The notes: a model not told the origin generated them from the sequence alone. A stretch of DNA of 32,000 nt from an uncultured Bacilli bacterium (GCA_934131175.1 CAKOZD010000016.1:8302-40301); one strand, 5' to 3'; numbered from the stretch's first letter, positions 20,227 through 31,683 are shown. A program made the numbers and translations.

Positions 20227-20709
20227 TTACTCTTCCTCTAATGCAGTTATCTCTTCTTCTGTTAGATTAGTAAGCTCAGATATTAAAGATTTATCCATTT
20301 TCTTCTTTAACATATTCTTTGCTATTTCTATTTTTTCTTCTCTTTTTCCTTCATCTTTCAATGCCCATTCCTTGTCATAGGCTTCTCCAAATCCATCTTC
20401 AAAGCTTACTTCTTCTGCTTCTTTTAGATATTCATTCATAACTTTCTCATCACCCAAACCTTTTAGTTTATCTAAGTCCATATCTACTAGTGCTAGAATA
20501 TATTTTTCTCTTTCACTAAGACTTTTTTCACCTTCATTATACCATTTCTTTCTTAGGTTTGGTACATATATTTGTATGAATACTAATTTATCACTTAAAA
20601 CTAAAATATATACACTTTTATACTTTTTCAAATGCAAATTAATTATAGTTTTAAACCATAATCTTTTTCGCCTAGTAACATAATTAAAATTTTTAATAGA
20701 ACAAATCAT
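20227..20709 (-). pseudogene. 5'-truncated Rpn-family (PD-(D/E)XK nuclease/putative transposase) gene fragment
   Basis: Only the C-terminal half is recognisable (DKLVFIQIYVPNL ... KIEIAKNMLKKKMDKSLISELTNLTEEEI). The N-terminal nuclease domain is absent. The stop lies inside a terminator hairpin GAAGAGT/ACTCTTC followed by a T-run. Confidence 0.5.
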
Positions 20710-20970: not shown

Positions 20971-21384
20971 TTATTTAGAAATATTTTGTAAGAATCCTTT
21001 AATTTTTTCATAATTATTGAAATCAATATTAAGAGATTTATTAATTAAACTAATTAACTCTTCTCTATTTAAATTCTTGTCATAACTATTATTAGATAGT
21101 GCTTTATAATGATTATAATTATCAAAATCACCATTTACTTTTTCAATAATATTGTCTTTAGAGCAAACAAGAAAAGCTAAATCAATACGTCTTAATTTAT
21201 CAAGAACTTTATCATAAGAATTAAGACCAAATGATGTACAATTATTTATATATTTATATTCAAAGAGATACCATAATATTAAAGCATCATCATTATATGT
21301 TTTATAAAATATTCCTTCTTTAACAAGAATTATTGAATGTTTGTATTGTTCCTTATACATGTCATATAAATCTTTTGATTTCAT
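20971..21384 (-). CDS. small MutS-domain-I-like protein, candidate DGR accessory factor
   Basis: ILVKEGIFYKTYNDDA...SFGLNSYDKVLDKLRRIDLAFLVCSK aligns by eye with MutS [17 protein letters not shown]...[28 protein letters not shown]. The ATG at 21384 lies 4 nt after the RT stop. Confidence 0.55.
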   Translation of the reverse strand: MKSKDLYDMYKEQYKHSIILVKEGIFYKTYNDDALILWYLFEYKYINNCTSFGLNSYDKVLDKLRRIDLAFLVCSKDNIIEKVNGDFDNYNHYKALSNNSYDKNLNREELISLINKSLNIDFNNYEKIKGFLQNISK

Positions 21385-21388
21385 AAAC

Positions 21389-22522
21389 CTAGTTCCCTTC
21401 TTCAAGAAAAAATTTATTCTTGTATACAAAATTATTAGTAGTTGATACTTTAAAATACCCATTATAACTAGCAAGAGATTTCTTATAAAAATTAATATTA
21501 TTTTTTCTTGCTTTTCTTAACTTTCTTTTTATTTTCTTACGTGTTTGATTATTAAGTAAAATAATTAATTTTTTATTTTTTAAAATAAATTTATATCCTA
21601 AAAAATTCACTCCACTCTTTAAATTATAAATCTGTGTTTTCTTATTAAGAGATAACTTAAGAGAAGATAACTTTTTATTAATTAAATTTAGACATTTCTT
21701 TAAATATTCTTTATCATGATGAATTAAAATGAAATCATCCATATATCTAATGTAATACTTAATATGAAGATGTTCTTTTATATAATGATCAAGTTCATTC
21801 AAATAATAAATAGCAAGTAATTGACTTGTCTCATTACCAATAGGTAAACCTTTTCCTTTATGATACCTTGGTAGACTATAGAGTTGTTTTTTTCTTAACT
21901 CTAAATCATAAATATTCATATCTTCTAAGTGAGATATTTCTCTATTTATAGAACTATCTATTAAATCATTTATATAGCCATTATCAGTACTATTAATTAT
22001 ATTAATTAAAATCTTTAAAATATCTTTATCAAAATTTTCATGAGATAACTTATTAATTAATATTTCATGATCAATATTATAAAAGTACTTACTAATATCA
22101 CATTTTAAAATATAAACATTATCATAATTTTCTTTAATAGAATTAATATATTTTTTCATATATCTAATTCCTTCTTTAGAACCTTTTCCAGTTCTTGTAG
22201 CAACATTTTGTTCAATTAACTTTCTTGATAAAGTTGGTATTAAAACATATTTACTTATTAAGTGATTAACTATTTTATCATACATTAATTCACTCATTAT
22301 AATTCTATACTTAGGTTCTTTAATTATAAAAATATTATATTTAAGATGACTATAATGTTTGTTATTTAAAGTATTATATATCTTAACAATATTAGATGTT
22401 TTAGTTAATTCAAATCTTACTAGTTTTGCTTTATGACATGTATTTTTATAGATACCATCATATACATCTTTTATTTTATTAATAGAAACAATATCATTAT
22501 AAGAAATACTATATTTATTCAT
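21389..22522 (-). CDS. DGR-type reverse transcriptase
   Basis: RT motifs CDISKYFYNIDH, LPIGNETSQ (DGR-specific [I/L]GxxxSQ), YIRYMDDFIL (YxDD) and VNFLGYKF. It lies next to Avd and the TR/VR pair. Confidence 0.9.
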   Translation of the reverse strand: MNKYSISYNDIVSINKIKDVYDGIYKNTCHKAKLVRFELTKTSNIVKIYNTLNNKHYSHLKYNIFIIKEPKYRIIMSELMYDKIVNHLISKYVLIPTLSRKLIEQNVATRTGKGSKEGIRYMKKYINSIKENYDNVYILKCDISKYFYNIDHEILINKLSHENFDKDILKILINIINSTDNGYINDLIDSSINREISHLEDMNIYDLELRKKQLYSLPRYHKGKGLPIGNETSQLLAIYYLNELDHYIKEHLHIKYYIRYMDDFILIHHDKEYLKKCLNLINKKLSSLKLSLNKKTQIYNLKSGVNFLGYKFILKNKKLIILLNNQTRKKIKRKLRKARKNNINFYKKSLASYNGYFKVSTTNNFVYKNKFFLEEGN

Positions 22523-22910
22523 TTACAAGTTTATATTCCTTAGAATCTTTTTTATAAACATATTTCTTTAATGTAGCATTGTCTAATATTTTATTGATTG
22601 TTTTTGAATTATAATTATTAAGTACCTTACCATCTAAATCATAAACAATATTATTTTCAACATAAGCTTCTTTAGTAAACATAATAATATTTTCAGAATT
22701 ATCATTAGAATAACCATATAACTTAGAAATATATTTTCTAGTAGATGTATCAACATTATTATCTTTTATATTATTATATAAATTATAAACAACTTTATAT
22801 TTTACTACTTTATTTTTATTACCTTTCTTAGTATCTGATAAGAAAGATATTGTGACTAGTACAAGTATTATTACTAGACTTATAAATATTAATTTTTGTA
22901 TTTTATTCAT
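22515..22910 (-). CDS. small protein with an N-terminal membrane anchor, function unknown
   Basis: One N-terminal TM helix (LIFISLVIILVLVTISFL). It overlaps the avd stop by 8 nt and the RT start by 8 nt, which suggests translational coupling. Confidence 0.5.
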   Translation of the reverse strand: MNKIQKLIFISLVIILVLVTISFLSDTKKGNKNKVVKYKVVYNLYNNIKDNNVDTSTRKYISKLYGYSNDNSENIIMFTKEAYVENNIVYDLDGKVLNNYNSKTINKILDNATLKKYVYKKDSKEYKLVNE

Positions 22911-23256
22911 TAATAGTCACCTCTTTTTTTCGTAGTGCTTTAGTCATAGCAATTATTTCTGATAAGAAATTACCTATAACAATATATTTCTTTTCACTTA
23001 TAATTTTTTTATCATGACTTATATTTATATAAAAATTTAACATTGATATAGATATTAATAAGTCTTTTAAGTTTTTATCTTTTATTCTTATTGAATCATT
23101 TATGTTGTATGAGTAGATATTTTTTATTAATTCATAACAGGTTTGTTCTATGTTATTTTTTAATACTACTTCTTTTTTAGGATAATCAACTAAGACTTTA
23201 TTAATGTAGTTTATTGTTTTATATGATTTATCTAATATTTTGAAATTTGTTTTCAT
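22903..23256 (-). CDS. avd: Avd-like four-helix-bundle protein (DGR accessory variability determinant)
   Basis: About 117 aa, helical and basic, with the pattern DYPKKE..L...IEQ....L...I..N ... LKDLL..ISMLNFYINIS..KK.IS.KKY...GNFLSEI. GGAG (23264-23267) sits 7 nt before the ATG at 23256. Confidence 0.7.
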   Translation of the reverse strand: MKTNFKILDKSYKTINYINKVLVDYPKKEVVLKNNIEQTCYELIKNIYSYNINDSIRIKDKNLKDLLISISMLNFYINISHDKKIISEKKYIVIGNFLSEIIAMTKALRKKEVTINE

Positions 23257-23510
23257 ATTGTTTCTCCATAATGTGGCAAAAGAAACTAAGATGATATTCT
23301 TGATGAATCTTTTCCACTGATATAGCAATAGTTAATTAATCTCTTGTTAAATAACGTCTATACCTTGTTTTTAGCACAGTGGCATGGGACTAACCTTGTT
23401 TCCAATCTAGATATGATTATTGCTAATGCAACTACTTCCTCTAAGTATCAGCCATGACCAATACTATGCGGTTCATTAGTTATAATAATTACTAATTTGT
23501 AGTAGGAAAT
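23257..23510 (-). ncRNA. non-coding segment 3' of the template repeats (candidate spacer/priming region of the DGR RNA)
   Basis: No ORF and less AT-rich than its surroundings. It contains UUAGUCCCA (23393-23385), complementary to the UGGGACUAA that precedes each TR. Confidence 0.35.
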
Positions 23511-23618
23511 TGGGCGAACGCTGTAGCCGTTACCAGTGTTGTTGTTCGTAAGCTCGCCTGAAGAATTCACGTTGAACTCGTTCGCATTACCCCAATTGTT
23601 GAAGATGGACGGCGACAT
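23511..23618 (-). repeat. DGR template repeat TR-1 (36 codons, no cognate VR in this window)
   Basis: It encodes MSPSIFNNWGNANEFNVNSSGELTNNNTGNGYSVRP with 10 AAY codons. It has the same 5' leader and the same termini as TR-2, but a different interior. Confidence 0.75.
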
Positions 23619-23663
23619 GCACTCATCTGACCACTAATTAGATTAGTCCCAAATTTTGGAAAT

Positions 23664-23775
23664 TGGGCGAACGCCGTAGCCGTTATTGACATTACCCCAT
23701 TCGTTCAACTCGCCGGAAGACGTCACATTCAACTCGTTAGCGTTGCCATTGTTGTTGAAGTTGGACGGCGACATG
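23664..23775 (-). repeat. DGR template repeat TR-2 (cognate of the VR)
   Basis: It aligns with 23939-24050 at an offset of 275. There are 20 mismatches, all at template adenines on the coding strand. It encodes MSPSNFNNNGNANELNVTSSGELNEWGNVNNGYGVRP. Confidence 0.9.
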
Positions 23776-23863
23776 CACTCATCTGACCACTAATTAGATT
23801 AGTCCCAATTTTTTCATTCCCTCAATGATGAGTCATTTCGGGACAAGTTGTTTTCTTTTCTTA

Positions 23864-26602
23864 TTATTCAATAACATATGGATCCTCCTTCGTTCCTGAA
23901 CCTGTGAACTGAAGATTTGAAGAATCTAGATTGATCACTGGGCGAACGCCGTAGCCGCCACCGACAAAACCCCATACGCCCAACTCGCCGGAAGACGCCA
24001 CAGACAACTCGCGAGCGCCGCCATTGACGTAGAAGTGGGACGGCGACATGGTCCAATAATAGGTACCGGTATACAAATAGAATAATTGATTTTTATAACT
24101 TGTTCTTGCTCCTGCCATGTTAACTTCATCTGCTGTTATTAAACCAATTGGACTTGTTAATTTTTTGTTACCGATTGTACTATTTGTTGTTGTAAATTTA
24201 TCATTAACATTTGAACATGTTAATCTTGGTCCAGTCATTCTTCCACCCCATGAGTAGAACCTTTCATATCCATATATTGTTGGTACTGCTCCATATCCTG
24301 AATTTTGATAAGTACCACTTTTTATTGTAGATATTTCCCTATCGTTACAGAATGATGAGTTTGTTGCAATTTTATCACTATAACTTGATAAATTGTTTTT
24401 ATACCAGTTTTCTAAATATGTTTTCATATTACTATTTGTTGTATTTGATATAGCATTTTCAAGTGATGGTGATGCATACTCTACTGCTTTTACATTCATA
24501 GATGTTGGACTTACATACTTATCAACATGATTCAATCTTTGACTAGTCGATGTTGATGATGTTCCAAAAACTGTATATAATTTATCATTCGCATGCTTAG
24601 TGTTATATTCTGATAATGTCATTGCTTCAAGTGTTCCACTCAACTTAAATGCATTGTTATTTTTATCAAATGTATATTCTGTTCCAAAATAATATTTTGC
24701 TGTTGCAGACAATCCTGAATAAGTAAAAGCATAGGTCCATTCTTTTATTTCATTTGTACTGGTGTCTCCATACATATATCCAACATAAGCATTATCACTC
24801 CATCTAGAATTAAATGCACTTGTTCCTACTTGTCTATTACTACTTGATTCACCATTTGCATGAGGAGATGTTCCATCATAAATTAATCTTACTGAATTAT
24901 CTCCATTTATTCTTATAATTCTCCAATATTTGTTTGCAAACTTAACATAGTTTCCTCCAACTATTCCTCTATAATAATAACTTGTTCCTTCATCATCAGC
25001 TGTTGAATAAAGACCTGATTCTGAATTATCATAACTTAGAATTGCTGATGAATAATTATATTTAGTCAAAGTATAAGTCACTTGTTGAGTCGTCTGGTTG
25101 GTAGATGACGTTGCACTAGTTAACAAATACATTGTGTCACAAGACGTACTTGTATTTCCACATGTATAATATGTTCCATTAGAATAATCTTTGGTTGTTG
25201 GGTCTACCAATGTTGCACTCTTTAAAGTATATTTCCCAGTTGACTCTTGGAATGTGTAACCAGTATTTGTATCTGTTACTTGTGAAATATAAATATATGA
25301 CGAAGTTGATAGCGTTGATGTTTGTGTTGCATGTATTTCATTATATTTTATAGCTGGACTTGTAACATTAAAATTAGGTGTACCTTTATTTACAATTTCT
25401 TGCTTTGCTTCAGTAACATTTGTATTTTTTTGTTCTGTTGCAATTATACAATCTGAGAAATTAGTTAAATTGTTCTTCTCACACCAACTTTTATGTCTTA
25501 TTGTTGTACTCTTAGCAGTTATTTCAGATATATTTCCTGCAATATCTTCAGCATAAACTGTTGCTAAATAATCTCCTTCATCTAAACTTGTAAATGTATA
25601 ATTAGGAAATTCACTTTCAACATAAGTAGTTCCACTATCTTTACTATAGTAATATTTACTAATTCCACTAAATGAATCTTTTGCATCTACTGTAATTGTC
25701 ATAGTATCATCATTAGGTTCAATAGTAACTGTAGATATAGTTGGTTTCTCATTATCAACTTTATATTTATTACTACATCTGCTATATTCATTACCTTTAC
25801 TATCAACTGCTTTAAAACACGCCACTTGATAATCTTTATTATTTGAAAAAGCAATATTGTATTTATTGTTTGTTTTTGTTATCTCTTTTTCTGGTACACA
25901 TACTTCATCAGTTGTTACACAATATTTTGCATAAGCAATTTTTGTATCATCTAATACTTCAAAATTAAGAGATAATGTTTTATACCAATCTTCATTTCCT
26001 AATTCATGGTCGCCTAAATCATATTTAATTCTTGTACCATTTCCTGTACCATCATCTTGTACATAATTAAGAGTAAAACTTAATTTTGCATTTATATCAT
26101 TTGGAGCGTAATTATTTCCATCCTTATATTTTATCTCTATTTTTAATGTCTCTTTTGAATCTTTTTTTAATAAGTCTTTTTCTTTTATTTCATTTCCATC
26201 CGAATATTTAATTGAATATTCTAAATATTTTTGTTGTTCTTCAGTTAATTCTGTTTTAAATATTTCTGTTAGCATAGCATCAATTGATCCTGAATTAACT
26301 ACATCAACATCAAATGAATATTTATCTCCTGGACTTTCTAACGATATATCCATTGATATTGTTGTATCATTAACAATCTTTGCTGGTGTAGTTGCTTCTA
26401 CATTTCCATCATCAAATTTTATATTTGAAAAATGAATGTTCCAAGATGTTTTTGCTATATTTGCTGTTCCAGCTAATTTTAAATTACTACTTAGATATGC
26501 ATATCCTACGCCTATAGTTGACCAAGCAAATAAGATTAACGCAAAGATAAGTAATTTTTTACTATTTTTTATTGAAAAGTATTTATTTATCTTTCGTTTC
26601 AC
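23864..26602 (-). CDS. DGR target: secreted multidomain protein (TasA/camelysin-like N-terminal domain, Ig-like domain, C-terminal variable ligand-binding module)
   Basis: GTG start at 26602. The signal-anchor ends in GVGYA. The LESPGDKYSFDVDVVNSGSIDA motif is present. An Ig-like repeat lies around DNEKPTISTVTIEPNDDTMTITVDAKD. The C-terminus contains the VR. Confidence 0.85.
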   Translation of the reverse strand: MKRKINKYFSIKNSKKLLIFALILFAWSTIGVGYAYLSSNLKLAGTANIAKTSWNIHFSNIKFDDGNVEATTPAKIVNDTTISMDISLESPGDKYSFDVDVVNSGSIDAMLTEIFKTELTEEQQKYLEYSIKYSDGNEIKEKDLLKKDSKETLKIEIKYKDGNNYAPNDINAKLSFTLNYVQDDGTGNGTRIKYDLGDHELGNEDWYKTLSLNFEVLDDTKIAYAKYCVTTDEVCVPEKEITKTNNKYNIAFSNNKDYQVACFKAVDSKGNEYSRCSNKYKVDNEKPTISTVTIEPNDDTMTITVDAKDSFSGISKYYYSKDSGTTYVESEFPNYTFTSLDEGDYLATVYAEDIAGNISEITAKSTTIRHKSWCEKNNLTNFSDCIIATEQKNTNVTEAKQEIVNKGTPNFNVTSPAIKYNEIHATQTSTLSTSSYIYISQVTDTNTGYTFQESTGKYTLKSATLVDPTTKDYSNGTYYTCGNTSTSCDTMYLLTSATSSTNQTTQQVTYTLTKYNYSSAILSYDNSESGLYSTADDEGTSYYYRGIVGGNYVKFANKYWRIIRINGDNSVRLIYDGTSPHANGESSSNRQVGTSAFNSRWSDNAYVGYMYGDTSTNEIKEWTYAFTYSGLSATAKYYFGTEYTFDKNNNAFKLSGTLEAMTLSEYNTKHANDKLYTVFGTSSTSTSQRLNHVDKYVSPTSMNVKAVEYASPSLENAISNTTNSNMKTYLENWYKNNLSSYSDKIATNSSFCNDREISTIKSGTYQNSGYGAVPTIYGYERFYSWGGRMTGPRLTCSNVNDKFTTTNSTIGNKKLTSPIGLITADEVNMAGARTSYKNQLFYLYTGTYYWTMSPSHFYVNGGARELSVASSGELGVWGFVGGGYGVRPVINLDSSNLQFTGSGTKEDPYVIE
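23939..24050 (-). repeat. DGR variable repeat (VR)
   Basis: It encodes MSPSHFYVNGGARELSVASSGELGVWGFVGGGYGVRP, ending about 25 codons before the target's stop. By hand count it is about 65 percent GC. Confidence 0.9.
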
Positions 26603-26619: not shown

Positions 26620-27981
26620 TTAATTTAAATCTAAAATGTATGGATTATTTTCTTCTCCAGTTCCAGACTTTATATTTATTTCATTTTTAATTACAATTGA
26701 AGGTCTTACTCCTAATTGGTCACTTACTTTAGCACTTGATAATATTTCTGTTTTAGAAGATGTATCAATATTTGAATTTGTATCATAGCTATATGGAGTC
26801 ATTGTAAAGAACACTTCATCATTTGAAAAATTATTAACTAAACCAACTTCTTCTGATGTTAATAGTGCAACTGGATACGTTAACATTCCATTTCCATTTC
26901 TTACACTTACTGTGAAAGCATCTCTTGTGTTTTGACACGTTAAACTTATATTTGTTTTAGTATAATTTAATTTATTGGTATGCCATGAATTAAATATATT
27001 TAATTTATTTGTTGAATCTTCATCTTTATTTTTTATACTTCCTGTATATAAATCTCTATTATTACACCATACTGAGTCTTCTAAATATTTTGTATAGTCT
27101 ATCATATTATTTTTATACCATTCATCTATTTCTTTTTTTATATTTGAGTCAGTTATATTTACAAAACTTTTTTCTTTTATTGTATCTATTGTTGCTCCAC
27201 TTGATAATTCAAAATATTTAGATGTTATATCACTAGAAAAATCAGTTACATAATATACTTTTGAACAATAATTTTTTGCATCAAAACATGTATAGTGATA
27301 TTTAGTTGCTAATGTATTTTTATCATTTGTCCATGATGTTGATATATAATCATCACTTAAAACATAAGTATCTGTATCTTTATTATATGTTACATTATTT
27401 GAATAAACATATTCATAATCCTGTTTTGTCATATCCTTTTCTTCTTGTTTATAAGAAACTCCATACATATATCCAACATCTGTTAAACTATTACTATCTG
27501 AATTAAAATTTGTAATTGTAAGTAAAGAGTCTTCACCAGTATTTGTACATACTCCATTTGAATCAGGTTTACCATTATATAAAATTTTTGTTCCACCCTT
27601 TTCTGTTGTTCTAATTATCTTCCAACAGTATCCAGCAAAATTAACATTATTATTAGTTGTATTTCCTCTAAAATATTTAATTGGAAATTCATCAGTTATA
27701 GTTTCATTTTTTAAATATATTCCTTTTCCATTAGTATCAGAAGATTCTTGATTAAAATCTATACCATCAGTATTTTTAACATAATCACTTTCTATATTAT
27801 CTTCTACTGCATTGCATCCTATTCTTTTATATAAATTTTTGACTGCATTACAATTTTTCTTCTTTACTGTGACATTTGAATCAATAGTCAATGTTGTTGA
27901 AAGGAATGCATATCCTATACTTACTGAAAAAAACAATATTAAAATTAATGTTATATATATTTCTTTTCTTGTATATTTCAT
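26620..27981 (-). CDS. non-diversified paralogue of the DGR target that lacks the TasA-like and Ig-like domains
   Basis: It shares the signal/N-terminal strand (SIGYAFLSTTLTIDSNV) and blocks such as YFRGN..NNVNFAGYCWKIIR, VGYMYG and EWYKNN...WCNNRD. Its C-terminus is MTPYSY...QLGVRPSIV. Confidence 0.7.
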   Translation of the reverse strand: MKYTRKEIYITLILILFFSVSIGYAFLSTTLTIDSNVTVKKKNCNAVKNLYKRIGCNAVEDNIESDYVKNTDGIDFNQESSDTNGKGIYLKNETITDEFPIKYFRGNTTNNNVNFAGYCWKIIRTTEKGGTKILYNGKPDSNGVCTNTGEDSLLTITNFNSDSNSLTDVGYMYGVSYKQEEKDMTKQDYEYVYSNNVTYNKDTDTYVLSDDYISTSWTNDKNTLATKYHYTCFDAKNYCSKVYYVTDFSSDITSKYFELSSGATIDTIKEKSFVNITDSNIKKEIDEWYKNNMIDYTKYLEDSVWCNNRDLYTGSIKNKDEDSTNKLNIFNSWHTNKLNYTKTNISLTCQNTRDAFTVSVRNGNGMLTYPVALLTSEEVGLVNNFSNDEVFFTMTPYSYDTNSNIDTSSKTEILSSAKVSDQLGVRPSIVIKNEINIKSGTGEENNPYILDLN

Positions 27982-28004
27982 AAAACTATTCCTTTCTAAA
28001 AAAC

Positions 28005-28622
28005 TTATTTTTCAAATGAAAATCTTTCACTACTTTTTTTCACATCATCTTTTTTTCTTACTGGAGATATTTTATATGCTTTATCATTTGGTAACTTTAT
28101 TATTGTTGTTTTACTTATTTCGTTTAATGTTTCTTCATCTATATCTCCTTTATTTTTATTCTTGATTTTATTATTATTAATTTCTATCTCAAGAGGTGAT
28201 AAAATATCATCATTCTTTTTTAGAATAAATATTATAGCTTGGTTTTGATCAAACAAAATAAATGAACAATTATCTGTTTGTTTAAAAAAGTAAATCATTT
28301 TTCTTAATTCTGTTTGAGCATCAATTAAGTCATCTATTGAATTAACTAAAATTATTTTCTCACTATCTATAACTGGAACCTTTCTTGTTTCAACTAATAC
28401 TGAATCATATGTTTTTAATATTTTCTTTAATTTTGTTTCATACTTTTCTTCGTTTGTATCTCCAGCAAATCTATATGTTAATTCTTGAATTATAAATGAT
28501 ACTGCTATTGCTAATACAATAACTGCATAATTTATATAACTATTCATAATCAAATACCCCCCAAAAAGCACAACTGCTAAAATAAATATATCAAATATTA
28601 TTAATTTATCTTTCTTTGTCAT
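28005..28622 (-). CDS. membrane protein with two N-terminal TM helices, function unknown
   Basis: ORF tightly packed between the signal peptidase gene and the paralogue gene. Confidence 0.5.
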   Translation of the reverse strand: MTKKDKLIIFDIFILAVVLFGGYLIMNSYINYAVIVLAIAVSFIIQELTYRFAGDTNEEKYETKLKKILKTYDSVLVETRKVPVIDSEKIILVNSIDDLIDAQTELRKMIYFFKQTDNCSFILFDQNQAIIFILKKNDDILSPLEIEINNNKIKNKNKGDIDEETLNEISKTTIIKLPNDKAYKISPVRKKDDVKKSSERFSFEK

Positions 28623-28626
28623 ACAC

Positions 28627-29787
28627 TTATCCTTTCTGAGAAATTAGTTCAGATATAAATACACTTGGATATGAAATATATGGTATTTTTCCTATAACTT
28701 TTCCCTTTATATTCTTTAATTTTATTTCAACATTATCTTCTGTATTATTGGCATCACCTTTTGTTATATATATCTTTTCATCATTTTTAATCATTGTTTT
28801 GACTATCCTATGTATTATTATTCTGTCACTTGTCTTATAAGCGATAATGTCTCCTTTTTTTATTTCTTTTTCATTTTTTATCTTCTTAATAATTACTGCG
28901 TCCCCTTTGCTTATTTTTGGTTGCATTGAATTTGAACCAATTCCAAGCATTTGATATTTAAACACCCCTGACGTTAACAGTATTAGAACTAAAATAATAA
29001 TTACTAATGGAATATCATATAATTTTATAGATTTTTCTTTAAATTCATGTTTAATTGGTTCTCTACTATATTGTTCAACAATAGATGACGTACTTATATA
29101 TATCATTATTGGTAAAGTTATTAATATCATTGAATTAAAATAGTCACCTAAATTTGGAAATATTGGTAAAAGGTATTTATACAAATCCATTACTAAACGA
29201 TATATTACTGAACTTTTTAATCCAGCATAATATGTTAAATAACTTAATGATGCATTTTTTATTATTATTGGTAATATAACCGATGATGTTATTTCAAACA
29301 CATTTTTAAAATTATAATTAATTATTGGTCTGATTGTTATCGTTAATTCTAATAAAATTAAACCTATTGTAAATAGAGTTATATCTTTTTTCTTATCAGT
29401 GTTTGATGATATAAAAATATATCTTATTAATTCTGTTGCAATAATAATTATTATTGGTGAAAGCATATTTTCAAATATCTTATTTATTTTTAATGAGTAA
29501 GCATTTTTCAAGAAACCAGTAAAGAAACCTAATAAATACATTATTGCAAAGGTAATTACAACAAAAAAGATTGTGTTTTTTAATAAATCATCTTTTATTT
29601 TTGTTTTCTTATCTTTTCTATAACCATATATTAAAAGTAAAATACTTAATAATATTATTAAAAATCCAGCAGTTAGTGTTTCTGAGTAAGCAGGGATTCT
29701 TGTAAATATAATGAATTTATAAAAAAGTATATATAGGAGTATTACTAATAATAAAATATAATTTTTTAAATTTCTTTTCATTTTCAT
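28627..29787 (-). CDS. SipW-type (S26B, archaeal/ER-type) signal peptidase I fused to an N-terminal polytopic membrane domain
   Basis: The C-terminal roughly 110 aa carry GSNSMQPKISKGD (catalytic Ser), IIIHRIV (His) and TKGDANN. About 270 aa with 7-8 hydrophobic helices precede them. Confidence 0.7.
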   Translation of the reverse strand: MKMKRNLKNYILLLVILLYILFYKFIIFTRIPAYSETLTAGFLIILLSILLLIYGYRKDKKTKIKDDLLKNTIFFVVITFAIMYLLGFFTGFLKNAYSLKINKIFENMLSPIIIIIATELIRYIFISSNTDKKKDITLFTIGLILLELTITIRPIINYNFKNVFEITSSVILPIIIKNASLSYLTYYAGLKSSVIYRLVMDLYKYLLPIFPNLGDYFNSMILITLPIMIYISTSSIVEQYSREPIKHEFKEKSIKLYDIPLVIIILVLILLTSGVFKYQMLGIGSNSMQPKISKGDAVIIKKIKNEKEIKKGDIIAYKTSDRIIIHRIVKTMIKNDEKIYITKGDANNTEDNVEIKLKNIKGKVIGKIPYISYPSVFISELISQKG

Positions 29788-29847
29788 CCCTTCTTCTATA
29801 CTTATATATAGATACCTGCTCTATATTTATATATAAATATAGAAGTT

Positions 29848-29872
29848 GCAGCTTGGATTTTCACCAAGCTGC
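29848..29872 (-). terminator. GC-rich hairpin after the small TasA-like gene (possible partial terminator)
   Basis: GCAGCTTGG (29848-29856) / CCAAGCTGC (29864-29872) with a 7-nt loop. The T tract on the minus strand is weak. Confidence 0.45.
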
Positions 29873-29884
29873 TATATCTATTTA

Positions 29885-30424
29885 TTAATCTTGAACATAG
29901 TTCATTGCAAATGTTAAATTTAATGTTTGTGCGTCTGTAGGTAATTGATTATTTGAAATATTTTTATCAAATTCAACTCTTACCCTTAATGTTTTTGTTG
30001 CTCCAACAGCTAATTTATCATCTGCTTTAATTGCAGTACCATCACTATATTTAACTGTATAATTTGTATAAACATCTTGTTCTGTTGATACTCCGCTTAA
30101 TATAGGTGCATCACCTAATTTTGCAGCAATAGTTCCATTGTTTGTAACATCTACTGTAAATTCATAAAAATCACCTGGTTTAGTTAATTCAACATTGTAA
30201 TCAACTGTTGTTGTGGCACTATCAATTGCAGCTGCTTTTGTTGCTGATACACTACCTGATGTAACTTGTAAATTTGTAAAATGTACATCCCATGAAGCAT
30301 TATTAATTTTTGAAGTTCCCTTAATATTTAAAGTTGTGCTTAGAGCTGCGTATCCAACTGTAATAGTTAATAGTAATAAGGCTAGTAGTGATAAAACAAC
30401 TTTTTTACCGTTTTTTTTCTTCAA
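29885..30424 (-). CDS. small secreted TasA/camelysin-like protein (candidate major fibre subunit)
   Basis: The signal ends in TVGYA. LTKPGDFYEFTVDVTNNGTIAAKL resembles TasA NLKPGDKLTKDFQFENNGSLAIKEV. The protein is collinear with residues of about 30-185 of the 912-aa target (both end in ...NYVQD). Confidence 0.6.
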   Translation of the reverse strand: MKKKNGKKVVLSLLALLLLTITVGYAALSTTLNIKGTSKINNASWDVHFTNLQVTSGSVSATKAAAIDSATTTVDYNVELTKPGDFYEFTVDVTNNGTIAAKLGDAPILSGVSTEQDVYTNYTVKYSDGTAIKADDKLAVGATKTLRVRVEFDKNISNNQLPTDAQTLNLTFAMNYVQD

Positions 30425-30513
30425 GATTTCACCTCCTCACTGCTTTTTATTTATCTTTTTTGTATATTTCTATAAAAAAGATGAATAATATAATTAAGAT
30501 AGACATGCTTTTT

Positions 30514-30536
30514 TCATAATATTTGCTATATTATGA
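30514..30536. repeat. recombinase-core-like dyad, copy A
   Basis: TCATAATAT-TTGCT-ATATTATGA. It is the reverse complement of copy B at 31857-31879. Confidence 0.6.
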
Positions 30537-30594
30537 AAAAAAAGATAAAAATAAATAATATCAATGATTCTATCTTTTTTGACTAATAATTTGA

Positions 30595-31683
30595 CTAATA
30601 ATTTATAAAGATTGTATTAAAAAATTCTTTCTTGTATTCTAGATTTGAATGCACATATATTGATAATGTCGTTTTTACATTTGAATGACCAAGAACTTCA
30701 CTAAGTGATTTTATATCAAATCCAAGATGACAGCATCTTGTTGCAAATGTATGCCTTAAAATATGAAAATTGTAATCCTTCATATCAAGATTTTTTAATA
30801 TTTTCTTATAATTATAATAAAAAGTTCTTGTATCTATTGCCTTTATAGAATTTGTTAAAACAAAATTTCTTTCATTATTTGAAATTAGTTTTCTATGTTC
30901 AAGCAAACATTTTAAAATAACTTTGTCTAATGGAATAACCCTAATAGAATTATCTGTTTTTGCTGAATTTAAAATAACTTTTGTCTTCTCAAATTTTTTA
31001 CCATCATTTGTTTTAACTCTAGACAAAGTATATTCTACTGTTAATACTTTATTTTCAAAATCAACGTTTTTCCACTTTAAAGCACAGACTTCGCCTAGTC
31101 TTAATCCAGTATGTAGTGAAATTAATATACCTAATGTATACTTATTTAAATTTAATATTGAGTAGTTTTCAATCCTTTTTAATTCATTATCATTCAACGT
31201 TTTTAATATCTTTTTATGTGTTTTAGGTAATTTAATTTCAAAATTTAATCCAGAATATTTTAGAATTGATTTAAAAATGACCATTACTTGTTTTAAAGTA
31301 TTCTCATTTATTTCATTTTTTTTACTATACATAAAATTGTAAATCATTGATTCTGAAATTTGATTCGTTTTTAAATTGCCAAATGTTGGTTTTATATGCT
31401 TGTTTATAATATTTGAATAATAATTTAATGTACTTAATTTTAGATTTATTTTATTTTTATTTAACCATTCATTTATTTTTACATTGAATAAATCATTATC
31501 TATTTTTTCAATATTTTGATTTATTCTGAGCATTATTTCAGTACGTTTATTTTTTACTTCTTGATACGTCTTACCATAAACATAACCATAAATATTTTTT
31601 CCAGAATAGTCTCTTCCTTTTACATATCTTGCTTCCCATCTTCCATCTTTTCTATAAAAGATATTTTCACCTTTACGAGCCAT
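30595..31683 (-). CDS. tyrosine recombinase / phage-type integrase
   Basis: The C-terminal catalytic region has HTGLRLGE, HILRHTFAT and LGHSNVKTTLSIYVH (R..H-x-x-R..Y). The N-terminal MARKGENIFYRKDGRWEARY is typical of arm-binding domains. GGGAGG sits 9 nt before the ATG. Confidence 0.85.
   Translation of the reverse strand: MARKGENIFYRKDGRWEARYVKGRDYSGKNIYGYVYGKTYQEVKNKRTEIMLRINQNIEKIDNDLFNVKINEWLNKNKINLKLSTLNYYSNIINKHIKPTFGNLKTNQISESMIYNFMYSKKNEINENTLKQVMVIFKSILKYSGLNFEIKLPKTHKKILKTLNDNELKRIENYSILNLNKYTLGILISLHTGLRLGEVCALKWKNVDFENKVLTVEYTLSRVKTNDGKKFEKTKVILNSAKTDNSIRVIPLDKVILKCLLEHRKLISNNERNFVLTNSIKAIDTRTFYYNYKKILKNLDMKDYNFHILRHTFATRCCHLGFDIKSLSEVLGHSNVKTTLSIYVHSNLEYKKEFFNTIFINY

What the first reader, a model, noticed from the sequence alone, without database searches (positions are those of the whole stretch)
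20971..21384. MutS mismatch-binding-domain-like mini-protein directly coupled to the DGR RT
The 137-aa ORF starts 4 nt after the RT stop. By eye, HSIILVKEGIFYKTYNDDALILWYLFEYK....SFGLNSYDKVLDKLRRIDLAFLVCSK aligns with MutS domain I ([29 protein letters not shown]....[28 protein letters not shown]). The mismatch-intercalating Phe of the F-x-E motif is kept, but the Glu is Lys (FYK). DGR homing creates A-templated mismatches, so a stand-alone mismatch-binding module could shield the heteroduplex from host repair or bias its resolution. I recall a MutS-like accessory gene being reported in a DGR survey but cannot verify this. Its function is, as far as I know, untested.
Basis: partly seen in the sequence, partly recalled or inferred. 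Interest (0 to 1): 0.7.

Follow-up and report, generated by a model that had tools for sequence, protein, structure and literature searches.

The report
Known MutS-like DGR accessory protein (Msl)
The small gene just after the reverse transcriptase of this diversity-generating retroelement does encode a copy of the mismatch-binding domain of the repair protein MutS, but this "MutS-like" (MSL) accessory gene class was described in 2017 and its function is still untested.

Summary
ORF 20971..21384 (-) encodes 137 aa and starts 4 nt after the RT stop. It lies in a real DGR: 20 VR/TR mismatches in the 110-nt core, all at TR adenines.

It matches Pfam MutS_I just above threshold (9 of 10 close relatives also match). 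A family profile hits Taq and E. coli MutS and human MSH6. An AlphaFold model (pLDDT 90) has only MutS/MSH chains among its 50 best PDB matches.

The mismatch-stacking Phe is kept in 101 of 103 stand-alone relatives. The Glu of Phe-x-Glu is kept in only 4 of 103 (Lys here).

This is the MSL accessory class of Wu et al. (NAR, published 2017). I found no functional test of it in the held literature.

New here:
- In 27 of 31 related genome loci the module is the C-terminal domain of the RT itself. This window carries a split version.
- In other relatives it sits upstream of avd.
- One lineage lacks it, and one clone carries a nonsense allele.

My best guess (about 0.4) is an RT-tethered heteroduplex binder that occupies mispairs without signalling repair.

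Verdict: new member of a known kind, modest interest.

Seen in passing and more unusual: a tandem array of 2-5 alternative TRs feeding one VR, and a conserved membrane-anchored ORF between avd and RT.

The parts
20971..21384 (-). msl: 137-aa MutS-like accessory protein. Residues ~1-85 form a MutS domain I fold. Residues 87-136 form a conserved two-helix hairpin.
   Evidence: dN/dS 0.16-0.20
21301..21309 (-). Codons F26-Y27-K28, the counterpart of MutS Phe-x-Glu (Taq F39/E41).
   Evidence: HMM alignment to Taq MutS. Family counts: F 101/103, Y 94/103, Glu-position E only 4/103. In fused forms F 26/26 and K 25/26.
21389..22522 (-). DGR reverse transcriptase, 377 aa. Its stop lies 4 nt before the msl start.
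   Evidence: RVT_1 E=2.8e-18; relatives
22515..22910 (-). orfX: 131-aa ORF with an N-terminal hydrophobic helix. It overlaps the avd stop and the RT start by 8 nt each.
   Evidence: No family hit. It occupies the same slot in RT relatives. dN/dS 0.17-0.19.
22903..23256 (-). avd, 117 aa from the ATG as called in relatives. The ORF list shows a TTG start at 23328.
   Evidence: bAvd E=1.1e-11; PHROG Avd; NCBIfam DivGenRetAVD below its cutoff; gene calls
23329..23511 (-). 183-nt spacer between the last TR unit and avd. It is identical in four strains and contains TTAGTCCCA (23385..23393), which is complementary to the TR leaders.
23512..23618 (-). TR unit B (type u5): 107-nt core with 29 A. It has no cognate VR in this window but is the donor of the VR in other strains.
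23665..23774 (-). TR unit A (type u2): 110-nt core. It is the cognate template of this window's VR.
   Evidence: 20 mismatches to VR, all at TR adenines, 0 others
23940..24049 (-). VR, at the 3' end of the target gene.
23864..26602 (-). Target gene: 912-aa surface-type protein with an N-terminal hydrophobic segment and weak Ig-like/PKD hits.

Best explanation
Shown:
- The ORF is a real gene of the Msl/MSL (MutS-like) class of DGR accessory proteins.
- It consists of a MutS domain I fold plus a C-terminal helical hairpin.
- It has none of MutS domains II-V. There is no connector, clamp or ATPase, and so no way to signal to MutL.
- In most relatives the same module is a flexibly tethered C-terminal domain of the DGR reverse transcriptase. 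This window carries a split version: stop codon, 4 nt, ATG.

Inferred:
- The protein travels with the RT/cDNA complex.
- It uses the conserved Gly-x-Phe-Tyr loop to bind mispaired duplex made by adenine-mutagenised cDNA.
- The Glu that licenses repair in MutS is replaced (Lys/Arg in about 45% of stand-alone relatives, varied residues in the rest) and there is no ATPase. It can therefore occupy mismatches but cannot start repair.
- The net effect would be to stabilise the densely mismatched cDNA:VR heteroduplex and hide it from host MutS, so that more retrohoming events are fixed.

My confidence by step: about 0.95 for identity as an MSL member, about 0.8 for physical association with the RT, and about 0.35-0.4 for the shielding mechanism.
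For: Identity:
- Pfam MutS_I hits.
- Profile hit to Taq and E. coli MutS and to MSH6, with Phe aligned to the intercalating Phe.
- The 50 best Foldseek PDB matches shown are all MutS/MSH. BFVD contains small phage 'MutS domain I' proteins.

Linkage to the RT:
- 31 of 35 assessable MSL-selected genome loci have the RT directly upstream. In 27 of the 31 it is one fused ORF.
- Fusion proteins combine RVT_1 and MutS_I.
- The fusion model has a low-confidence linker between two confident domains.
- Three of four RT-selected relatives keep msl in the cassette although its position changes: after the RT, or before avd.
- 0 of 80 distant viral DGR RT loci have it. It is therefore specific to certain RT clades, as Wu et al. 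reported.

Constraint:
- dN/dS 0.16-0.20.
- Phe kept in 101 of 103 and Gly in 100 of 103.

Why a shield would pay:
- Deleting host mutS raised retrohoming 5-10 fold in a Bacteroides DGR that lacks Msl. Repair there behaved as all-or-nothing (10.1101/2024.11.15.621889).
- From my own knowledge: E. coli MutS E38 mutants still bind mismatches but fail to authorise repair. Structures of E38A, E38Q and E38T are among the fold hits.
Against: - No experiment on any Msl was found.
- The Pfam match covers only 40 of 113 profile positions and barely passes the cutoff for this protein.
- Fusion to the RT fits a role in cDNA synthesis equally well.
- One RT lineage (P0277, RT 63% identical) has no msl within 5 kb.
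- One clone carries a nonsense codon at msl codon 13. The gene can therefore be lost.
- Host mutS was reported as not required for BPP-1 retrohoming.
- I could not check whether this host has MutS/MutL. It is a low-GC gut lineage labelled Bacilli or Mollicutes. If the host has none, there is nothing to shield against.
Confidence: 0.4

Rival explanations
1. Helper for cDNA synthesis. As an RT domain or subunit, the module grips the emerging TR-RNA:cDNA hybrid and stabilises rA:dN mispairs behind the active site. That would allow extension past misincorporations, or raise processivity. It would have nothing to do with host repair.
For: In 27 of 31 relatives the module is the C-terminal extension of the RT, just after the thumb region. 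Basic residues often replace Glu at the F-x-E position. msl is always in the same operon as avd and the RT.
Against: MutS domain I is known to read DNA:DNA mispairs from the minor groove, and binding to an A-form RNA:DNA hybrid is not documented (my own knowledge). Most DGR RTs, including BPP-1, carry out adenine mutagenesis with Avd alone. The tether of about 14 residues is predicted flexible, not docked.
Confidence: 0.25
2. A homing-step factor that recognises a DNA structure other than a base mismatch. Candidates are the flap, D-loop or junction formed when cDNA invades VR, a target-side hairpin, or bulges created when a TR unit of different length is copied in.
For: The discriminating Glu is lost, which fits looser specificity. 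MSH3-type domain I binds loops without F-x-E, and MutSbeta chains are among the best fold hits. This lineage swaps 107-nt and 110-nt templates into the same VR, which must create a 3-nt loop.
Against: The intercalating Phe is 98% conserved. This is typical of mismatch-reading domain I and not of MSH2/MSH3 (my own knowledge). Most MSL-bearing relatives have a single TR.
Confidence: 0.15
3. A recruiter or biaser of host mismatch repair. Msl marks the heteroduplex and directs MutL/MutH-type or beta-clamp-directed excision to the parental strand, so that repair converts VR to the cDNA sequence.
For: All-or-nothing repair of VR heteroduplexes was observed in Bacteroides.
Against: The protein has no connector or ATPase domain, which are the parts of MutS that contact MutL (my own knowledge). 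I saw no beta-clamp motif by eye and ran no motif search. Every family search returned only domain I.
Confidence: 0.07
4. A dispensable relic. The MutS-like domain is a leftover passenger of this RT clade with little present function.
For: There is a nonsense allele in one clone. One RT lineage has none. Decayed cassettes keep msl without an RT (L001, L016, L030, L036).
Against: The gene is under purifying selection. The family has 648 clusters at E<=1e-3 with near-invariant G, F, D, Y and F positions. It is retained through three different gene arrangements.
Confidence: 0.08

Closest known systems
MSL (MutS-like) DGR accessory proteins, Architecture D of Wu et al., NAR 46:11 (PMC5758913); called Msl in Bacteroides DGRs (10.1101/2024.11.15.621889)
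   Same: A small protein (137 aa, within the 112-283 aa range) with MutS similarity, encoded in a DGR cassette. avd is present and HRDC is absent. The pI is near neutral (7.7). Occurrence follows RT clades. RT versions with a C-terminal MutS_I extension exist.
   Different: Nothing essential differs. I could not align it directly with the 16 published MSL sequences because the supplement is not held. This subfamily comes from uncultured low-GC gut Bacilli/Mollicutes. NCBIfam, PHROGs, and the Pfam hits precomputed for its closest cluster all leave it unannotated.
MutS domain I (Pfam PF01624), the mismatch-binding domain of bacterial MutS and eukaryotic MSH6
   Same: The same fold (rmsd 1.7-2.6 A over about 80 residues). 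The G-x-F-Y...D-A motif is conserved, and the Phe aligns with the mismatch-stacking Phe.
   Different: The Glu of Phe-x-Glu is replaced (Lys here; Glu in 4 of 103 relatives). Domains II-V are absent. An unrelated, conserved two-helix hairpin with a near-invariant Tyr90 follows the domain.
DGR RTs with a C-terminal MutS_I extension (three cases noted by Wu et al.)
   Same: The same module in the same RT clade. In 27 of 31 related genome loci the RT and Msl form one ORF of about 490-515 aa.
   Different: In this window the module is detached: RT stop, 4 nt, then a new ATG. In two further lineages it has moved upstream of avd.
Small stand-alone 'MutS domain I' proteins of uncultured phages in BFVD (e.g. 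A0A8S5PPT8, A0A8S5PL02)
   Same: Stand-alone domain I of similar or smaller size, with a similar fold (E 2e-5 to 2e-4).
   Different: No sequence relatives of this subfamily turned up in IMG/VR, INPHARED or PLSDB. I did not examine the genomic context of those phage proteins.

Membership tests
MSL/Msl DGR accessory protein (Wu et al., PMC5758913) | Small protein (112-283 aa) with detectable similarity to MutS | tested here: met
   137 aa. Pfam MutS_I, profile match to PDB MutS, Foldseek.
MSL/Msl DGR accessory protein (Wu et al., PMC5758913) | Encoded inside a DGR cassette (RT plus a TR/VR pair with adenine-specific differences) | tested here: met
   RT lies 4 nt upstream. VR and TR differ by 20 A-site mismatches and 0 non-A mismatches.
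MSL/Msl DGR accessory protein (Wu et al., PMC5758913) | Co-occurs with avd and not with HRDC | tested here: met
   avd found by bAvd and the PHROG Avd model. No HRDC hit among the cassette ORFs.
MSL/Msl DGR accessory protein (Wu et al., PMC5758913) | Roughly neutral pI (7.2 +/- 1.7) | tested here: met
   pI 7.66. Family mean 7.8 +/- 1.4.
MSL/Msl DGR accessory protein (Wu et al., PMC5758913) | Direct sequence homology to the 16 published MSL proteins (Legionella, Bacteroides and others) | not tested
   The supplementary sequences are not held. No hit in the plasmid or phage collections.
MutS domain I (PF01624) | Score above the Pfam gathering threshold | tested here: met
   21.3 bits against 20.6, a marginal pass covering profile positions 7-46 of 113. 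9 of 10 relatives match, best E=1.1e-7.
MutS domain I (PF01624) | Domain I fold | tested here: met
   Model pLDDT 90. The 50 best PDB matches shown are MutS/MSH domain I.
MutS domain I (PF01624) | Phe-x-Glu mismatch-recognition motif | tested here: inconclusive
   Phe is present and 98% conserved. Glu is replaced by Lys here and is present in only 4 of 103 relatives.
MutS-family mismatch-repair ATPase (MutS/MSH) | Connector, core/lever, clamp and ABC ATPase domains (MutS_II to MutS_V) | tested here: not met
   The protein ends at residue 137. Only MutS_I was found, and the C-terminal part is a helical hairpin. It is not a MutS protein.
Mismatch-binding protein (functional class) | Preferential binding to mispaired duplex | not testable with these tools
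   Needs EMSA or similar. No published test was found.

The most novel reading that the evidence does not exclude
Msl may be an RT-tethered anti-mismatch-repair decoy. It would let this DGR clade fix cDNA that is very unlike the resident VR. That includes not only 10-20 adenine-site mispairs but whole template swaps, because this lineage keeps a tandem array of 2-5 diverged TR units and writes different units into the same VR in different strains. If so, Msl together with the TR array would make a 'multi-template' DGR. Template choice might be set by pairing between a leader before each unit and the invariant spacer.
Probability: 0.2. Interest if true: 0.75.

Novelty: new member of a known kind. 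Interest (0 to 1): 0.35.

Why it matters
MSL is one of four recognised DGR accessory gene classes, and its role is still open. Recent work shows that host MutS cuts retrohoming 5-10 fold, and that engineered DGRs in E. coli do better with mismatch repair disabled.

A natural protein that does this job would explain why some DGR clades carry a MutS fragment. It could also serve as a compact, portable add-on for DGR-based and retron-based mutagenesis tools.

This locus adds practical handles for testing that idea:
- a split form and many fused forms of the same module;
- a conserved Phe to mutate;
- a naturally occurring nonsense allele in otherwise identical strains.

Tried and rejected
- A PDB sequence search with the 10-sequence profile found no MutS. 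Only the 80-sequence profile did.
- The search for related loci rejected the 80-sequence alignment. I used a 21-sequence alignment instead.
- Protein searches of INPHARED phages and PLSDB plasmids, and a pattern scan of IMG/VR, found no relatives of this subfamily.
- The listing of cluster members returned no source names.
- The promoter/terminator scan was uninformative in this AT-rich DNA: 28 sites against 32 expected, and no terminators.
- Folding the spacer RNA alone gave z = -0.12.
- Rfam and tRNA scans of the window found nothing.
- I rejected the 167-aa reading of the ORF from TTG 21474. It overlaps the RT by 86 nt. Gene calls in relatives and the fused forms all align from Met1 at 21384.
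- I rejected the idea that msl homologs next to housekeeping genes are independent host genes. L001/L036 and L030 still have the target gene beside msl. L016 is an integrase fused onto the RT tail plus msl. L012 has a deletion spanning the RT and msl. These are decayed cassettes. L006-L008 (msl beside thyX, contigs under 3 kb) remain unresolved.
- The 'frozen VR' in the msl-nonsense clone is not evidence for function. Those assemblies show 0 differences in the directly comparable stretches, so they are probably the same clone.

Full report
**1. The observation**

On the minus strand, ORF 20971..21384 encodes 137 aa beginning MKSKDLYDMYKEQYKHSIILVKEGIFYKTY. Its ATG lies 4 nt after the TAG stop of a 377-aa reverse transcriptase at 21389..22522. 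A purine-rich GAAGGG sits about 10 nt upstream of the start.

The RT belongs to a real diversity-generating retroelement. It matches RVT_1. An Avd gene lies upstream (bAvd, PHROG Avd, NCBIfam DivGenRetAVD).

The 3' end of the 912-aa target gene (VR, 23940..24049) differs from a downstream repeat (TR, 23665..23774) at 20 positions in the 110-nt core. All 20 are adenines in the TR.

**2. Is it MutS domain I?**

Yes. Four independent lines agree.

- Pfam MutS_I matches at E=3.4e-4 and 21.3 bits (cutoff 20.6). The match covers only residues 7-46.
- 9 of 10 close relatives match the same model, with a best E of 1.1e-7.
- A profile of 80 family members hits Taq MutS (E=6e-4), human MSH6 and E. coli MutS among all PDB sequences. 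The family consensus G-n-F-Y-k-t-f-d-e-D-A aligns with Taq G-D-F-Y-E-C-F-G-E-D-A.
- An AlphaFold2 model (mean pLDDT 90.2, pTM 0.80) shows a beta/alpha core (residues 1-85) followed by two long helices (87-119 and 122-136). Its 50 best Foldseek matches in the PDB are all MutS, MSH3 or MSH6 chains, with about 80 aligned columns and rmsd 1.7-2.6 A.

In the viral structure library the best matches are small phage proteins named 'MutS domain I' or 'DNA mismatch repair protein', followed by giant-virus MutS proteins.

The ORF evolves under purifying selection. dN/dS is 0.16-0.20, against 0.07-0.10 for the RT.

**3. The motif**

I aligned 103 stand-alone relatives. The residue matching the mismatch-stacking Phe is Phe in 101. 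The preceding Gly is kept in 100 and the following Tyr in 94.

The position of the MutS Glu is variable: Lys 27, Arg 19, Ile 13, Tyr 10, Val 8, and Glu only 4. In 26 of 27 fused RT-Msl relatives that could be scored, the motif is KEG[IS]FYKT[YF], with Phe 26/26 and Lys 25/26.

Tyr90, at the start of the C-terminal hairpin, is also kept in 101 of 103.

**4. What is already known**

Wu et al. (NAR 46:11, PMC5758913) defined MSL ('MutS-like') as one of two new DGR accessory genes. Their description:

- found in 16 of 372 DGRs;
- 112-283 aa, pI 7.2 +/- 1.7;
- always with avd and never with HRDC;
- mostly confined to clades of the RT tree;
- three RTs carry a weak MutS_I match in a C-terminal extension.

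A 2021 review lists MSL among DGR ancillary proteins (PMC8632793).

A 2024 preprint names Msl in three Bacteroides DGRs. It shows that deleting host mutS raises retrohoming 5-10 fold in a DGR that lacks Msl, with an all-or-nothing pattern of repair. It does not test Msl itself.

Two papers that reconstitute a DGR in E. coli disable mismatch repair. One cites the MutS-like homologs as its motivation.

I found no functional test of any Msl in the held library.

**5. Distribution and linkage to the RT**

An exhaustive HMMER search found 648 clusters at E<=1e-3 and 166 at E<=1e-10. Most are 130-140 aa. A set of 470-515-aa members combine RVT_1 with MutS_I.

In GTDB species representatives, 39 loci encode relatives. 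All come from uncultured gut Bacilli, Mollicutes, 'Mycoplasma' or Erysipelotrichaceae-type MAGs, plus a few bins with other labels.

Of the 35 loci with enough upstream sequence, 31 have the RT directly upstream. In 27 of those 31 the RT and Msl form a single ORF. The other four are decayed cassettes:

- L012: a deletion spans the RT and msl.
- L016: an integrase is fused onto the RT tail plus msl.
- L030 and L036: target gene plus msl only.

A model of one fusion protein (496 aa, pLDDT 84, pTM 0.63) has two confident domains joined by a low-confidence linker at residues 342-355. This suggests a flexible tether.

I also selected relatives by the RT instead of by Msl, which gives an unbiased check:

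| RT relative | RT identity | Arrangement |
|---|---|---|
| P0268 | 71% | Same order as this window, with msl 264 nt after the RT |
| P0269 | 62% | msl upstream of avd and overlapping it |
| P0289 | 59% | msl upstream of avd and overlapping it |
| P0277 | 63% | No msl within 5 kb |

None of 80 viral DGR loci with RTs 26-37% identical has an Msl HMM hit. Msl is therefore tightly tied to this RT clade and is retained through fusion, fission and relocation. It is not absolutely indispensable.

**6. A natural null allele**

In the lineage whose RT is 97% identical to this window's (P0176), nine assemblies (L146-L154) have no msl gene call. The eight that span the whole gene carry CAA->TAA at codon 13 of an otherwise 98.5% identical msl. 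L150 ends at residue 59.

The five of these loci that include the VR have identical VRs. They also show 0 differences in the stretches that can be compared position by position, except L148, which carries an indel. They are probably one clone, so this says little.

Msl-intact strains behave differently. Strains that are nearly identical elsewhere differ strongly in VR. L142 and L145 differ by 1 SNP in 5.9 kb but by 21 positions in VR. Read-level analysis of those samples would be a cheap test.

**7. Mechanism**

What is shown: a domain I fold with the stacking Phe, no signalling domains, and attachment to the RT.

What I infer: Msl rides with the RT/cDNA complex and binds mispaired duplex made by adenine-mutagenised cDNA. 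It occupies the sites without licensing repair, and so protects the heteroduplex from host MutS. I put this at about 0.4.

The main rival, at 0.25, is a role in cDNA synthesis on the RNA:DNA hybrid. The fusion to the RT supports that reading equally well. Other options are recognition of loops or junctions at the homing step (0.15), recruitment or biasing of host repair (0.07) and a dispensable relic (0.08).

An epistasis test separates the first two: with and without msl, in mutS+ and mutS-null hosts. I could not determine whether the host encodes MutS/MutL. That is a real gap for the shield model.

**8. Verdict on the finding**

The thing itself is a new member of a known and already named accessory class. 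The modest additions from this work are:

- the family-wide motif statistics;
- the conserved C-terminal hairpin;
- the finding that fusion to the RT is the majority state in this clade and that this window is a fission product;
- the mobility of the gene within the cassette;
- a natural nonsense allele.

**9. Seen in passing: a tandem array of alternative TRs**

This may deserve more attention than the finding itself.

The window has two TR units with a 156-nt period. Each is preceded by the same leader of about 37 nt. Close relatives carrying the same cassette have one to five units (L012, a decayed cassette, keeps only one).

In 14 of 16 such loci with a scorable VR, counting this window, the single VR has zero non-adenine differences to exactly one unit of its own array. 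The exceptions are L143 (1 non-A difference) and L144 (no matching unit found in its own array). The donor unit differs between strains:

- u2 in this window, L011, L141, L142 and L145;
- u4 in L003 and L140;
- u5 in L002, L004 and L146-L150;
- u1 in L143, with 1 non-A difference.

The target protein toggles between 911 and 912 aa according to the donor. L143 and L144 differ by 9 SNPs in 5.9 kb, yet their VRs come from different donor types.

The 183-nt spacer before avd is identical in four strains. It contains TTAGTCCCA, which is complementary to TGGGACTAA in the leaders of units u2, u4 and u5.

Another species (L027) has about five units with a period of about 400 nt. L130 and L136 have two units each.

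The held literature yielded only passing mentions of multiple TRs: a DGR with 'two TRs' (PMC6642488) and individuals carrying several TRs in Treponema metagenomes (PMC4891356). I found nothing on alternative tandem templates feeding one VR.

**10. Seen in passing: orfX between avd and RT**

A membrane-anchored ORF at 22515..22910 sits between avd and the RT. It is conserved in that slot in every RT-selected relative, as a short form of 131-132 aa or a long form of 217-218 aa, with the motif Y[IV]SKLYGY[ST]. It has no match in Pfam, PHROGs or NCBIfam.

Noticed in passing
window 23512..23811 (-), with VR at 23940..24049; relatives L002-L004, L011, L012, L140-L150, L027, L130, L136: A tandem array of alternative template repeats feeds one VR. 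The window has 2 TR units (156-nt period, each with a leader of about 37 nt), and close relatives have 1-5. In 14 of 16 scorable loci of this lineage (window included), the VR has 0 non-adenine mismatches to exactly one of the strain's own units. The donor differs by strain (u1, u2, u4 or u5). Near-identical strains (9 SNPs in 5.9 kb) carry VRs from different donors, and the target length toggles between 911 and 912 aa. I found no description of this in the held literature.
   Followed up: partly
window 23329..23511 (-), site 23385..23393; leaders at 23619..23655 and 23775..23811: The 183-nt spacer between the last TR unit and avd is 100% identical in four strains whose proteins differ by 3-12%. 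It contains TTAGTCCCA, complementary to [T]GGGACTAA in the leaders of units u2, u4 and u5. The A-poor units u1 and u3 have GGGGCTAA (a G.U wobble). This could be an RNA pairing that selects the template unit. Folding the spacer alone is not remarkable (z = -0.12).
   Followed up: partly
window 22515..22910 (-): orfX is a 131-aa ORF with an N-terminal transmembrane-like helix. It overlaps both the avd stop and the RT start by 8 nt, and dN/dS is 0.17-0.19. Homologs (131-132 aa, or 217-218 aa with an insert; motif Y[IV]SKLYGY[ST]) occupy the same avd-orfX-RT slot in every RT-selected relative. They are absent from the fused RT-Msl loci and from 80 viral DGR loci. There is no Pfam, PHROG or NCBIfam match. 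It is a candidate lineage-specific DGR accessory gene.
   Followed up: partly
L146-L154 (RT 97% identical to the window), msl codon 13: A natural msl nonsense allele (CAA->TAA, giving MKSKDLYDMYKE*). Nine assemblies lack an msl gene call, and the stop is seen in the eight that span the whole gene. RT and avd are intact (orfX too, except in L148). The VR is identical in the five loci that include it, but these appear to be one clone. This offers a natural-knockout comparison at read level.
   Followed up: partly
L130/L132, L137/L139 (RT 59-62% identical): In these relatives msl lies upstream of avd and overlaps it (order target-TRs-msl-avd-orfX-RT) instead of after the RT. Lineage P0277 (L133-L135) has no msl at all. 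L133 shows no detectable TR/VR pair.
   Followed up: partly
window 20227..20709 (-): This 160-aa ORF matches only the C-terminal part of Rpn/PDDEXK_2-type recombination-promoting nuclease or transposase families (PHROG 3300, 5416). Relatives (L140-L145) have an intact 268-276-aa PDDEXK_2 + HTH_Rpn_C gene at the same place, so the window's copy looks truncated.
   Followed up: no
window 26620..31683 (-): Upstream of the target gene lie a 453-aa ORF with no family hit, a DUF5305 protein, a signal-peptidase-like (S26/S24) protein and a tyrosine integrase (30595..31683). The diversified protein may belong to a SipW-type secreted-fibre operon, possibly on an integrated element.
   Followed up: no
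L016 6984..8417: A 477-aa ORF joins a tyrosine-integrase-like N-terminal part to the last ~20 residues of the DGR RT and a complete Msl domain. The integrase part was identified by eye only. This is a rearranged, RT-less remnant of a fused RT-Msl gene.
   Followed up: no
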